Source of the DNA: Carcharhinus amblyrhynchos
Taxonomy: Eukaryota
Direction: 5' to 3'
Length of the DNA stretch: 64,000 bases
Assembly (NCBI GenBank): GCA_965287045.1
Contig: OZ336870.1
Location: forward strand, 130,448,001 to 130,512,000
Part shown: positions 30,301-33,300 of the stretch, piece after piece
Numbering within the stretch: the stretch's first letter is position 1
Layout: each line of letters opens with the position of its first letter
Program-made: the position numbers

Positions 30301-33300
30301 ACAATTTACCAAACAGCAGATCCTGGAGCAGGAGCTCTTGAAGCAGCCTGTATGCTATAAAAATCTCAGTAAGTTATAATAGAGTCCTAATATTTCCTCC
30401 AATAAATAAACCTATTTTTCTTCAGGTTTAAAATGTTAAAATAAATAAGAAACAGTATTAATTACCAAGGCCATTGATTTACCATGTTAGTGGAAATTAT
30501 AATCACAGAACATCATTGACAATAATTCCCTCTAATAAAACTGACATTTGACAGGTTCAATTACCACAAACCAGGGGAAGTAATTAAAATGGCAAAATGC
30601 ATTTGAATGTAAACCCAAAATAGTAAAATCTTCAGAACCCTGTGCAACAAAAATAGGAATTTAACTTTGCCATTGTAGAACAGTTGCCTTGCTAATATTT
30701 TTGAAATCATTTTCCTTTTGTTAATTCAAGTATTCTGACTTCATCCCTCATCCTGGCAGCAGCCTAAGATTAAACCAGTTTATTTGCAACCTTGGTGTAA
30801 TGTTTGATCCCCAGATTATCTTCTGACCTCATATTCGTGCCATCACTAAGACCATCTATTTCCAACTCCCATTGCCCTACCTCAGTTCACCTGCTGTTGA
30901 AAACCTCAATCGTGTCTTTGTTACCTCTAAGCATCGTTATTCTAATGGTCTCCTGTCGGGTCTCTCAGTCTATTCTGTAAACATGAGCTCTTTCAAAACT
31001 CTGCCCATGTTATAACTGGCAGCAAGTCCTGTTCCCCTATCACTCTATGCTGCAATGTAGTTCAGAAAGCAATGTCTTGACTTTAAAATTCTCTTTCTTG
31101 TATTCAAATCCCATTGACTTTGCCTCTCCCTCCCTCTATAATCTCCTCCAGCCCCAAAACCCTCTTTTGATATCTGCATTCCTCTAATTTTGGCCTTGTG
31201 GTTCCACAGTTTTAATCCCTGCACCACTGGTGGCCATGCCCTCAGTTCAGTAGGATCCAAGCATTGAAATTCCTATCCTACACCTTTCTCTCTCTAATTC
31301 ACGTTCTTAAGACCCTCCTTTTTAACCAAAGTTTTTTGTTTATATGATGTCATAACTCATTCTGTGGCTCGTGTCGTACTTTGTTGGATAATGCTCCTGT
31401 AAAGTGCCTTGGCACGTTTCGTTACATTAAAGGCGCTATATAAATGTAAGCTGTTGTAATAGCTAACATTCCTTCTCTGCTCTGGGATATACCGCGCAGT
31501 GGACAAACAGCTCATACACAAGTAGTATTATTTTTAAGATGGGCATGTATACATAGGTCATACACAGCGAAGAGAAATTAGAGGGAACAGTGGTGATAAA
31601 TTATCACATACAATATTAAAAATTACATATAATGTTAACCTTTCAGCTACATTGATACAAAAATTATCTGCAAATAAGCAGAGTCTCTAGATAAGTGAAG
31701 CTGTCCATATTTCATTGTTATGTGAAATGCAGGGTCCATTTTTCAGGTGGTTTCCTAATGTGGCAGAGAGGAAGTACTCACATTTTACAAACTAGAAGTG
31801 CCTTGCCTGCCACTGTTGTTAAAGTGAATAAATCAGTGTGAAGTGCCCAGGCTGGAAAATCGTAATGGGAAGAAGCCATTCAGCTCCTCAAACCATTCAA
31901 TGAGATCATGGCTGTTCTGTATCCTATCCTCACCCACATATCTTAAAAACATTTGGCTAGTAAAAATATATCACACGCAAATGTAAAATTATTTATTCAG
32001 CTAACACTTATTGCTACTTGTGTTGAAACAGGTGTTAAACCCTTTGCATGTGGAAATAAGGAGCCTAACAACACATGAGAGCCTCTTTGCAAGATTGGTC
32101 TGCCTCAGGAAGACCAGGTCTACATGCAGGACCGTGCTGCAAATAATAAGATAATATTTCAAAAGCATACTCACCTCAGTGTGGAGCTAGAAGGAACAGG
32201 AATCAGTTCCACTCCATATTCAACTTAGTGTGCCCTCCTGATTATCTCCCTTCCCAGTCCACTACTTCACTTATCGGCCTTTTGGCTAAGATCAAGTGTA
32301 GTATCAACATGCTGTGCTTGGTTGAAGTCATTAGGTTACGTTTTAGCTTTGTTTGAAGTAATTTTTAAAAGCGGCATCTCGACCTTTTGACTAAGATGCA
32401 AATGAGATCAAGCCTTAGAGGAGGAGCTATGCTTGCTCCAATCAGCTTGGATGATGTAGATCAAACCCAAGACAGGAGGTGAGAGCCCTGTCTTGTCAGC
32501 TTGGATCGGGAATGTCTCAACTTGTTCAGACTCTGAGTTGGACTTGATTTGATTGAATTGGAATAAAAACAAAATTAAAAAAACATGAAAAAAAACTTCT
32601 TCACTTACCCAAGAGCTGTTGCGACATGAAAAACAGGCAAATCATCAATCGCACTTGTCACCCAGCTGCCTGTTGCTATTGGCAGTTTGGTGCTCAATGT
32701 AAGTGAGGCCGAAGGCTAAGTATCAGGGTGCTTCAGGCCTTACCGTACAATGGTTATACATGAATTTCTAGCTTCATGTATAAATCATACCATTATCTCT
32801 GAATGTGATTTGTTCCCAAAAGGTATGACTCAGGCAACACAAGGGTTCAGTTAGTCAAACTCAGTGCATTTCAGCTACAGCTGGCATGCTTTGGTGTAAA
32901 GTATGTAGTGTCACATGGGTACCTTTTCAGCAATATCAGTCAGTAACTTCTAATTACATTATTACCTTTGCTTTTGTGTTCTGCACAGGAACACAAGAAG
33001 GAAAGCCATTCAGACCATCTTAAATCACCTATCCAGGAAATCCTACATCACATCCTTCCTCCAAGGCATTCAGTTGTTCCTTAAAGGATTCCAGGATTTT
33101 CAATTCCACTATCCTAAGCAGTAGTCCATTCACATCCTAACAATTCACGTTATGAAGAACTTCCTGACATCCAATCCCAGTTTACCTTCCAGTAGTTTAA
33201 ACTTCTGTCCCCTTGTCCTCCTTATTACAGTTCACTTTGCAGTGTTTTCCATATTTACCTTTTCTGCATTATTTATGACTTTATGCACCTTCCACCCCAG

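What the first reader, a model, noticed from the sequence alone, without database searches (positions are those of the whole stretch)
32261..32607. U2 snRNA-headed SINE-like retroposon family in a shark (SINEU-like), two copies in this window
Seen: a perfect 32-nt match to U2 nt 9-40 (32274-32305) is fused to a non-U2 body. A second degenerate U2 5' piece follows (TCTCGACCTTTTGACTAAGAT, 32377-32397, 19/21 to U2 nt 7-27). The element ends in AATAAA and an A-rich tail and is flanked by a 13-bp duplication with one mismatch (32261-32273, 32595-32607). A 5'-truncated copy at 22542-22721 is about 93% identical, so the body is a dispersed family and not a one-off U2 chimera. Known: snRNA-headed SINEs (SINEU) were described from crocodilians, and the U2-specific non-LTR elements Keno (Tx1 clade) and Utopia insert near U2 nt 37-40, close to the junction seen here. 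Inference: the master copy may be a U2 gene carrying a non-autonomous insert, transcribed from the external Pol II snRNA promoter and retroposed by an L1/Tx1-type enzyme. That would be an independent origin of an snRNA-derived SINE in cartilaginous fish; I do not know of a description of it.
Basis: partly seen in the sequence, partly recalled or inferred. Interest (0 to 1): 0.88.

Follow-up and report, generated by a model that had tools for sequence, protein, structure and literature searches.

The report
U2-headed retroposon copy in a shark
A 321-base retroposed element in an intron of a shark TRIM2 gene starts with a perfect piece of U2 spliceosomal RNA that folds back on the element's own sequence; it resembles the snRNA-headed SINEs known only from crocodilians, but only one headed copy could be examined.

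Summary
These are a 32/32 match to U2 nt 9-40 (32274-32305), a second degenerate U2 5' piece (32377-32397), AATAAA plus an A-rich tail, a 12/13 target-site duplication, and a second copy of the 3' 179 nt at 22542-22720 (92.7%). The window is shark: its TRIM2 exon is 100% identical to Chiloscyllium.

New here: the sequence after the head is not unrelated to U2. Its first 33 nt pair with the head in a 25-bp RNA hairpin (16 Watson-Crick, 9 G-U; z -5.35; 0 of 200 shuffles). The pairing is invisible at DNA level. The head ends at U2 nt 40, and Keno and Utopia LINEs leave U2 nt 39 as their 3' flank.

A random one-off template switch is therefore unlikely. I favour a SINEU-like non-autonomous retroposon whose RNA carries U2 nt 1-40, probably by co-transcription from an occupied U2 gene. 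A pairing-guided capture of U2 is the bolder rival.

No shark DNA, Repbase or Dfam could be searched, so copy number, recurrence of the junction and prior cataloguing are untested. Only 1 of 2 copies has a head.

The parts
32261..32273 (.). 5' copy of the target-site duplication (ACTACTTCACTTA)
   Evidence: 12/13 to 32595-32607. Only 1 of 300 random placements reaches this length.
32274..32305 (+). Outer U2 snRNA head, U2 nt 9-40, 32/32 to the Rfam U2 consensus
   Evidence: cmscan RF00004, 43.2 bits, E 2.2e-7.
32274..32341 (+). RNA hairpin. The U2 head (32276-32304) pairs with the element arm 32309-32337. It has 25 bp (16 WC, 9 G-U), two 2x2 internal loops and the loop CAAC.
   Evidence: dG -27.1 against shuffles -13.66 sd 2.51, z -5.35, 0 of 200. 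Pair list. Duplex -28.6 is equalled or beaten by only 8 of 63,862 other windows, all at one locus. At DNA level the inverted repeat is not significant.
32342..32373 (+). AT-rich linker with a T5 run. It contains a 13/15 repeat (32349-32363) of part of the antisense arm (32318-32332).
32374..32409 (+). Inner, degenerate U2 5' piece. The firm core is 32377-32397 (U2 nt 7-27, 19/21). A possible extension to U2 nt 40 needs 1 more substitution and 3 one-base indels.
   Evidence: for the core. for the extension: local score 18 against null mean 8.3 and maximum 15 in 500 shuffles, but the extension alone adds only +3.
32397..32561 (+). Body shared with the second copy. It holds short internal direct repeats (AGATCAA.CC at 32405 and 32458; TCAGCTTGGAT at 32442 and 32496).
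   Evidence: blastn 92.7% over 179 nt, nhmmer, the repeat finder. No Rfam match.
32562..32594 (+). AATAAA (32562-32567) and an A-rich tail interrupted by CATG
   Evidence: AATAAA is also present in copy 2.
32595..32607 (.). 3' copy of the target-site duplication (ACTTCTTCACTTA)
22542..22720 (+). Second copy of the body. It has no outer head, arm or linker and begins at the T that corresponds to inner U2 nt 27.
   Evidence: There is no TSD above chance: the best is AACCTTGT/AACCATGT, and 239 of 300 controls reach 8 nt.

Best explanation
32274-32594 is one retroposed copy of a short, non-coding, polyadenylated retroposon of the SINEU kind. It lies antisense in intron 1 of shark TRIM2.

The source RNA began with the 5' part of U2 snRNA, ending at nt 40. 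That U2 part was folded against an element-encoded arm into a 25-bp hairpin. Downstream, the RNA carried an older, decayed U2 5' piece from an earlier round, a body of about 165 nt, AATAAA and poly(A).

The most likely source of the pristine head is an element copy sitting in a U2 gene at the Keno/Utopia site (nt 38-40) and transcribed from the U2 gene's external Pol II promoter. R2 RNAs keep up to 36 nt of 28S rRNA that pair with R2 sequence in the same way.

A LINE enzyme that makes TSDs and uses poly(A) then inserted the RNA in trans at a non-U2 site, with 8 nt lost at the 5' end. In sharks a Tx1-type LINE is the likeliest enzyme.

Shown: the retroposition hallmarks, the two U2 pieces, the hairpin, the second body copy and the shark host. 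Inferred: that headed copies are a family trait, co-transcription from a U2 gene, the Pol II origin, and the Tx1 mobiliser.
For: Retroposition:
- TSD 12/13, AATAAA and an A-rich tail.

Dispersed family:
- Two copies lie 10 kb apart, 92.7% identical, with unrelated flanks.
- Two copies of a rare family in one random 64-kb window would be very unlikely (inference).

U2 link is not random:
- The arm next to the head pairs with it. The hairpin has z -5.35 and 0 of 200 shuffles fold as well. Elsewhere in the window only 8 of 63,862 windows, all at one locus, pair with the head as well.
- The arm pairs far better with true U2 (-28.6) than with the inner decayed piece (-16.5).
- The pairing is RNA-only. 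9 of the 25 pairs are G-U, and the plain DNA complement scores 5, which 990 of 1000 shuffles reach.

Serial acquisition:
- The outer head is 32/32 while the inner piece is 17/19 with indels beyond.
- Copy 2 shares the inner piece's 3' part letter for letter, so that junction predates both insertions.

Site:
- The head ends at U2 nt 40. The Utopia and Keno 3' flank starts at nt 39, and the Keno 3' target begins TCTGTTC.

Precedents:
- R2 keeps upstream 28S sequence that forms the P1 stem with R2 sequence (PMC3774820, abstract and passages).
- SINEU-1 shows recurrent U2 additions, and Tx1-11_Crp carries a U2 head in a Tx1 group that clusters with Keno.

Pol II rather than Pol III:
- There are runs of 4-5 T at 32280, 32343, 32363 and 32385, plus AATAAA. 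Kojima uses the same argument for SINEU.

Tx1 in sharks:
- The whale shark has no full L1, but Tx1 is present (PMC8455134, passage).
Against: - Only one headed copy was seen. Copy 2 lacks the head, arm and linker, so it may be 5'-truncated or may be a headless ancestor.
- No U2 gene, no U2 3' part and no Tx1/Keno ORF lies in the window.
- The insertion site does not resemble the Keno target: score 5, reached by 57% of random sites. If a Keno-type enzyme moved it, that enzyme was not site-specific here.
- The head starts at nt 9, not nt 1.
- No HDV-like or other ribozyme was found at E<=10.
- The extension of the inner piece to nt 40 rests on a gapped alignment that adds only +3.
- Background loci reach duplex energies of -27.4 to -28.2, and one locus reaches -32.6. 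The hairpin's significance therefore rests on its adjacency to the head.
- The bias towards pair-preserving transitions is weak: 9 of 10 by hand count, binomial p about 0.05.
Confidence: 0.5

Rival explanations
1. One-off chimeric retrocopy. During reverse transcription of an ordinary retroposon or LINE 3' end, the enzyme switched template to a U2 snRNA molecule, as in human U6/L1 and rare U2 chimeras. The U2 head would then be private to this locus.
For: - Such chimeras are documented (summarised in Kojima 2015, Discussion).
- Only 1 of 2 copies has the head.
- Copy 2 starts near the inner U2/body border.
- The head lacks U2 nt 1-8.
Against: - It does not explain why the 33 nt next to the head are complementary to it.
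- It does not explain why the arm is about 40% diverged from a perfect complement while the head is 32/32, which rules out a same-event snap-back.
- It does not explain why the junction falls at the Keno/Utopia site.
- The inner, older U2 piece shows that a U2-containing RNA was already being copied earlier.
Confidence: 0.15
2. Pairing-guided capture in trans. The element's 5' leader is antisense to U2 nt 11-39 and anneals to U2 snRNA. When the reverse transcriptase reaches the RNA 5' end it copies back along the annealed U2 from nt 40 to its 5' end. This adds a U2 head at a fixed position and can happen repeatedly.
For: - The geometry fits. The head ends at nt 40, three unpaired bases follow, then 25 bp of pairing.
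- The arm is tuned to authentic U2 rather than to the inner piece (-28.6 against -16.5).
- Recurrent U2 additions are seen here and in SINEU-1, where template switch was proposed without a guide.
Against: - There is no precedent that I know of (recall).
- The origin of an antisense leader is unexplained.
- One copy only.
- The same hairpin is equally expected under co-transcription.
- The inner U2 piece has no comparable partner downstream (-14.7 to -17.4 against a background of -10 sd 3.5).
Confidence: 0.15
3. The body is simply the 3' end of an autonomous poly(A) LINE of the Tx1/L1 type. Copy 2 is then an ordinary 5'-truncated LINE copy, and copy 1 is an internally deleted or chimeric derivative. 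This is compatible with the best explanation if that LINE is Keno-like.
For: - Copy 2 is only a 3' fragment of 179 nt.
- 5' truncation is the rule for LINE copies (Kojima 2015).
- Tx1 exists in sharks.
Against: - None of the LINE fragments in the window (42586-43029, 50285-50851, 63700-63975) is similar to the body.
- For crocodilian SINEU-1 no LINE sharing the 3' end was found either.
- Not testable further here.
Confidence: 0.15
4. A decayed retropseudogene of a whole U2 snRNA.
For: cmscan forces a full-length alignment (model 1-192) over 32266-32417.
Against: - All of the score comes from nt 1-40. The rest has no U2 signal at E<=10.
- The identity pattern of 32/32 followed by nothing is not uniform decay.
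- The same downstream sequence exists without a head at 22542.
Confidence: 0.03

Closest known systems
SINEU-1 of crocodilians (Kojima 2015, Genome Biol Evol, PMC4494074)
   Same: It is a short non-coding retroposon with a 5' end made of a short U2-derived piece. Further U2 pieces are added serially at the 5' end. It has partial internal duplications, a 3' part of unknown origin, poly(A), TSDs of about 10 bp and internal T-runs that argue against Pol III.
   Different: The host is a shark, about 450 My removed (recall). The body could not be compared with the SINEU consensus, because the figures and supplements are not held. No U1 piece is present. There is an antisense arm that pairs with the head, and I saw no such arm described in the sections read. 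Family status was not shown here.
Keno (Tx1 clade) and Utopia, U2-gene-specific non-LTR retrotransposons
   Same: The U2 head ends at nt 40, within 2 nt of the site where their 3' flank begins at nt 39. Some crocodilian Tx1 elements in a group that clusters with Keno carry a U2 head.
   Different: The element has no ORF. This copy is not in a U2 gene, and its target does not resemble the U2 site. No Keno-like LINE is in the window.
R2 co-transcripts and R2 SIDEs (Eickbush et al. 2013, PMC3774820; PMC3414825 seen in a search listing only)
   Same: The RNA of a site-specific element keeps upstream host-gene sequence (up to 36 nt of 28S) that pairs with element sequence. Non-autonomous internally deleted derivatives exist.
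   Different: [quoted passage not shown] Here it is a 25-bp hairpin and no ribozyme was detected.
snRNA/L1 chimeric retrocopies of mammals (Buzdin 2002 and Garcia-Perez 2007, as cited in Kojima 2015)
   Same: An snRNA sequence is fused 5' of another retroposed RNA, with a single TSD and poly(A).
   Different: Those are independent one-off events, mostly with full-length U6. Here there are two U2 pieces of different age and an arm complementary to the head.

Membership tests
SINEU (snRNA-headed SINEs, Kojima 2015) | 5' region derived from a U1 or U2 snRNA gene | tested here: met
   32/32 to U2 nt 9-40, plus a second piece with 2 differences in 19.
SINEU (snRNA-headed SINEs, Kojima 2015) | Short (<500 bp), non-coding, 3' poly(A) | tested here: met
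   The unit is 321 bp between the TSDs. The longest ORF that overlaps the element is 77 aa on the antisense strand; it runs into the 3' flank and has no homologue. The tail is A-rich.
SINEU (snRNA-headed SINEs, Kojima 2015) | A multi-copy family sharing one structure, not a sum of independent chimeras | tested here: inconclusive
   There are 2 copies of the body in 64 kb and only 1 has the head. No shark genome could be searched.
SINEU (snRNA-headed SINEs, Kojima 2015) | Sequence relationship to the SINEU-1/2/3 consensus sequences | not testable with these tools
   The consensus sequences are in figures, supplements and Repbase, none of which are held.
SINEU (snRNA-headed SINEs, Kojima 2015) | Mobilised by Tx1-type LINEs (shared target preference) | not testable with these tools
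   There is one TSD only. The flanks of copy 1 are not repeated in the window.
Non-autonomous derivative of a Keno-type U2-specific LINE | U2/element 5' junction at the Keno/Utopia site | tested here: met
   The head ends at nt 40, and the 3' flank of Keno and Utopia starts at nt 39. This is within 2 nt. The 5' junction of Keno itself was not seen in print.
Non-autonomous derivative of a Keno-type U2-specific LINE | Insertion inside a U2 gene, followed by U2 nt 39 onward | tested here: not met
   This copy is followed by its TSD in a TRIM2 intron. The window has no U2 3' part and the target is unlike the Keno site. A master copy elsewhere is not excluded.
Non-autonomous derivative of a Keno-type U2-specific LINE | Shares 5' and 3' ends with an autonomous Keno/Tx1 element | not testable with these tools
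   No shark LINE library or genome is available.
U2 snRNA gene or pseudogene (Rfam RF00004) | Score at or above the family's gathering score over the U2 structure | tested here: not met
   43.2 bits against 46. There is no hit at gathering thresholds and no U2 signal beyond nt 40.

The most novel reading that the evidence does not exclude
The element encodes a leader antisense to U2 nt 11-39. That leader is the reason U2 heads are acquired again and again at one fixed end point (nt 40). It could act in cis, as a hairpin that defines or stabilises the 5' end of a U2-element co-transcript in the way R2 uses 28S sequence. Or it could act in trans, by annealing to U2 snRNA and guiding a copy-back template switch. 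Either way it would give a mechanism for the so far unexplained recurrent snRNA head addition in SINEU-type retroposons. It would also show that this class arose independently in cartilaginous fish.
Probability: 0.2. Interest if true: 0.75.

Novelty: new member of a known kind. Interest (0 to 1): 0.5.

Why it matters
snRNA-headed SINEs are known from crocodilians only. Neither their transcription nor the repeated addition of snRNA pieces to their 5' ends is understood (Kojima 2015, Discussion). A second lineage in sharks would show the class is not a crocodilian oddity. This copy also offers two testable clues to the mechanism. The head ends at the Keno/Utopia insertion site, and it is paired with an element-encoded antisense arm. 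For genome annotation, such copies give U2-like hits just under the Rfam threshold and should not be called U2 pseudogenes.

Tried and rejected
- Protein proxy for copy number. The 51-aa and 61-aa antisense ORFs of the body were searched against the 5.8-billion and 1.84-billion protein sets and gave 0 hits each. This is uninformative, because those sets evidently do not hold such spurious shark ORFs.
- Extension of copy 2 upstream into the linker or U2 piece. Only a very gappy alignment results, so it was rejected.
- TSD for copy 2. Nothing above chance.
- Whole-U2 pseudogene. Rejected.
- tRNA, 5S, 7SL or other RNA origin of the spacer or body. No Rfam match at E<=10 apart from noise, and ARAGORN finds 0 tRNAs in the window.
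- DNA-level inverted duplication as the source of the hairpin. Not significant.
- A matching complementary arm after the inner U2 piece. Not above background.
- A global periodicity of about 53 nt in the element. The autocorrelation peaks at lags 105, 54 and 31 stay within the shuffle range, and TRF finds only the tail.
- Similarity of the insertion site to the Keno target. None.
- The locus 44279-44326 as a third U2-related piece. It gives the best duplex with the head (-32.6), but the sequence alignment equals the null mean and there is no Rfam U2 hit. It is left as a note.
- Literature. No shark or fish snRNA-headed SINE turned up. The whole word 'SINEU' occurs in 23 papers; the 21 listed titles include none on sharks. 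SINEU plus shark gave 1 irrelevant paper. 'U2 snRNA' plus SINE plus shark gave 5, none relevant by title or abstract. snRNA-derived plus SINE plus retrotransposon gave 6. Tx1 plus shark plus retrotransposon gave 6.
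Full report
**1. What is in the sequence**

I read 32100-32760 and 22400-22860.

Infernal against Rfam aligns 32266-32417 to U2 (RF00004) at 43.2 bits, E 2.2e-7. This is just under the gathering score of 46. 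Model positions 9-40 match 32274-32305 at every base. At gathering thresholds the whole window has no RNA family hit. Once the head is removed, 32306-32594 has no U2 match even at E<=10. The U2 signal is therefore the 5' 40 nt only, and this is not a decayed whole U2.

The 19-mer at 32274-32292 recurs at 32379-32397 with 2 mismatches. With up to 3 mismatches these are the only 2 sites in the window, against 0.03 expected, and 0 of 100 shuffles give two.

The 13-bp direct repeat 32261-32273 / 32595-32607 matches at 12/13. It abuts the head on one side and the A-rich tail on the other. Only 1 of 300 random placements reaches that length.

AATAAA is at 32562-32567.

blastn and nhmmer find exactly one further copy, at 22542-22720. 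It is 92.7% identical over 179 nt and there is no third.

**2. Host and setting**

The 262-aa frame at 12049-12837 (minus strand) carries a filamin repeat. It is 100% identical over 94% of its length to TRIM2 of Chiloscyllium punctatum and C. plagiosum. Identity is 99% to Cetorhinus and 97% to Callorhinchus. The window is therefore shark, closest to bamboo sharks.

I matched the named C. plagiosum protein to the window exon by exon (tblastn). This places exon 1 at 35269-35117 and exon 2 at 28841-28569, with further exons at 24398-24243 and 18169-17972. I did not build a joined gene model.

Copy 1 lies in intron 1 and copy 2 in intron 3. Both are antisense to TRIM2. Their flanks are unrelated, and the flanks of copy 1 are not repeated in the window. 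The two copies are therefore separate insertions and not a local duplication.

**3. New observation: the head is half of an RNA hairpin**

Folding the element and its 5' 68 nt pairs 32276-32304, which is U2 nt 11-39, with 32309-32337. The hairpin has these features:
- 25 base pairs, of which 16 are Watson-Crick and 9 are G-U.
- Two symmetric 2x2 internal loops.
- A four-base loop made of U2 C40 plus AAC.
- dG -27.1 kcal/mol against -13.66 (sd 2.51) for 200 dinucleotide shuffles, so z is -5.35 and 0 shuffles fold as well.

As a genome-background control I scored the 32-nt head against 63,862 40-nt windows of both strands.
- The mean is -11.4 with sd 3.6.
- The adjacent arm gives -28.6.
- Only 8 other windows, all at one locus (44275-44328), do as well or better.
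- Unrelated extremes reach -27.4 to -28.2.

The chance that the one window next to the head scores this well is therefore about 1e-4.

At DNA level the arm is not a recognisable inverted repeat of the head. The plain score is 5, which 990 of 1000 shuffles reach. A transition-tolerant score is 10, which 33 of 1000 reach.

Relative to a perfect complement, the arm has 9 transitions inside the helices, and all of them keep a G-U pair. It also has 4 transversions in the internal loops and one pair-breaking transition at the helix end. This is my hand count. Nine of ten gives a binomial p of about 0.05, which is suggestive only.

The arm pairs much better with authentic U2 (-28.6) than with the inner decayed U2 piece (-16.5). 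A snap-back made in the same event as the head is excluded, because the head is 32/32 while the arm is about 40% away from its complement.

**4. The inner U2 piece and copy 2**

A local alignment of the head against the rest of the element extends the inner piece to U2 nt 40. This needs one further substitution and three single-base indels. The score is 18, against a null mean of 8.3 and a maximum of 15 in 500 shuffles. The part beyond nt 27 adds only +3, so I treat the common end point at nt 40 as a lead and not a result.

Copy 2 starts at the T that corresponds to inner nt 27 and then matches copy 1 letter for letter through GCAAATGAGATCAAGCC. Whatever that stretch is, it was already in the common ancestor of both copies.

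Copy 2 has no TSD above chance. The best candidate is 8 nt with one mismatch, abutting its 5' end, and 239 of 300 controls reach 8 nt.

The inner piece has no convincing complementary partner downstream.

Short internal repeats exist, but there is no significant global periodicity.

**5. How it most likely works**

The TSD, AATAAA and A-rich tail show target-primed reverse transcription of a polyadenylated RNA. Runs of four or five T inside the 5' part would terminate Pol III. Kojima used the same argument for SINEU.

Two facts argue that the U2 head is not a random template-switch product. The first is the complementary arm. The second is the end of the head at nt 40.
- Utopia's downstream U2 starts at nt 39 and its 3' flanking U2 sequence is identical to Keno's (PMC4640811, section 6).
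- The Keno 3' target is printed as beginning TCTGTTC (PMC6136364, passages).

R2 gives a precedent. Its RNA is cut from the 28S co-transcript up to 36 nt upstream of the junction, and the retained 28S bases form a stem with R2 sequence (PMC3774820, abstract and passages).

In crocodilians, some Tx1 elements in a group that clusters with Keno carry a U2 head, and SINEU-1 shows repeated U2 additions.

I therefore favour an element that sits, or sat, in U2 genes at that site and is transcribed from the U2 promoter together with U2 nt 1-40. It folds that head against its own leader and is copied in trans to other sites. The whale-shark genome paper states that full L1 is absent but Tx1 is present in the whale shark and Callorhinchus (PMC8455134, passage), which makes a Tx1-type enzyme the likeliest mobiliser.

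These points count against this reading:
- This copy is not in a U2 gene.
- Its target is unlike the Keno site.
- It starts at nt 9, not nt 1.
- No ribozyme was detected.
- No LINE of that kind is in the window.

A bolder rival is that the antisense leader anneals to U2 snRNA in trans and guides a copy-back switch. The geometry fits equally well.

**6. Comparison with known families**

The architecture is that of SINEU-1: a short U2 head, a further U2 addition, an unrelated body and poly(A). Kojima 2015 states that no SINEU was found outside crocodilians.

Membership cannot be settled.
- Met: the snRNA head, the short non-coding size and the poly(A) tail.
- Inconclusive: the multi-copy criterion, with 2 body copies and 1 head.
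- Not testable: homology to the SINEU consensus and Tx1 mobilisation.

**7. What stayed unchecked**

- Repbase and Dfam were not available.
- Paper supplements and figures, including the SINEU alignments of Kojima 2015, could not be seen.
- Copy number, recurrence of the head-arm junction, a master locus and prior cataloguing are therefore open.
- My literature searches found no shark or fish snRNA-headed SINE. They cover open-access full text only.

**8. Verdict**

This is most likely a shark counterpart of the SINEU class with an informative hairpin. Until a genome-wide census is done it rests on one headed copy.

Noticed in passing
window 44275-44328 (+): This plus-strand stretch gives the best RNA duplex with the U2 head in the whole window (-32.6 kcal/mol). 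Its reverse complement resembles U2 nt 17-38 at 18 of 22 aligned positions, with one extra inserted base. The alignment score equals the shuffle mean and Rfam finds no U2 there. It may be chance or a very old antisense U2-like fragment.
   Followed up: partly
window 22179-22260 and 23150-23231: An 82-bp direct repeat (91.5% identical) brackets copy 2 at about 280 bp upstream and 430 bp downstream. Its nature is unknown. It may be two copies of another short repeat.
   Followed up: no
window 1244-1552 (-), 55336-55608 (+), 59120-59407 (+); also 1545-1596, 59087-59138, 23451-23503: A repeated sequence whose frames read ..FSM(A/T)NAPNQH.. occurs several times in both orientations. It is probably an abundant shark SINE or LINE-tail family. 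ARAGORN finds no tRNA-like gene in the window.
   Followed up: no
window 42586-43029 (+), 50285-50851 (-), 63700-63975 (+): These are LINE fragments. The first has an RVT_1 reverse-transcriptase match (E 1.2e-10), and 63700-63975 has the ALKBH8_N-type motif. None is similar to the U2-headed element.
   Followed up: partly
window 35269-1789 (-): Most of a TRIM2 gene lies on the minus strand, with exon matches from residue 1 to about 655 of the C. plagiosum protein. The filamin exon at 12792-12055 is 99.6% identical to that protein, while the exon 1 match is only 82%. The species may therefore be a relative rather than C. plagiosum itself.
   Followed up: partly
window 32349-32363 vs 32318-32332: Part of the antisense arm is repeated 31 nt downstream in the linker at 13/15. 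This hints that the leader grew by partial duplication. cmscan's apparent 'Sm-site' alignment of this stretch is not supported once the head is removed.
   Followed up: partly
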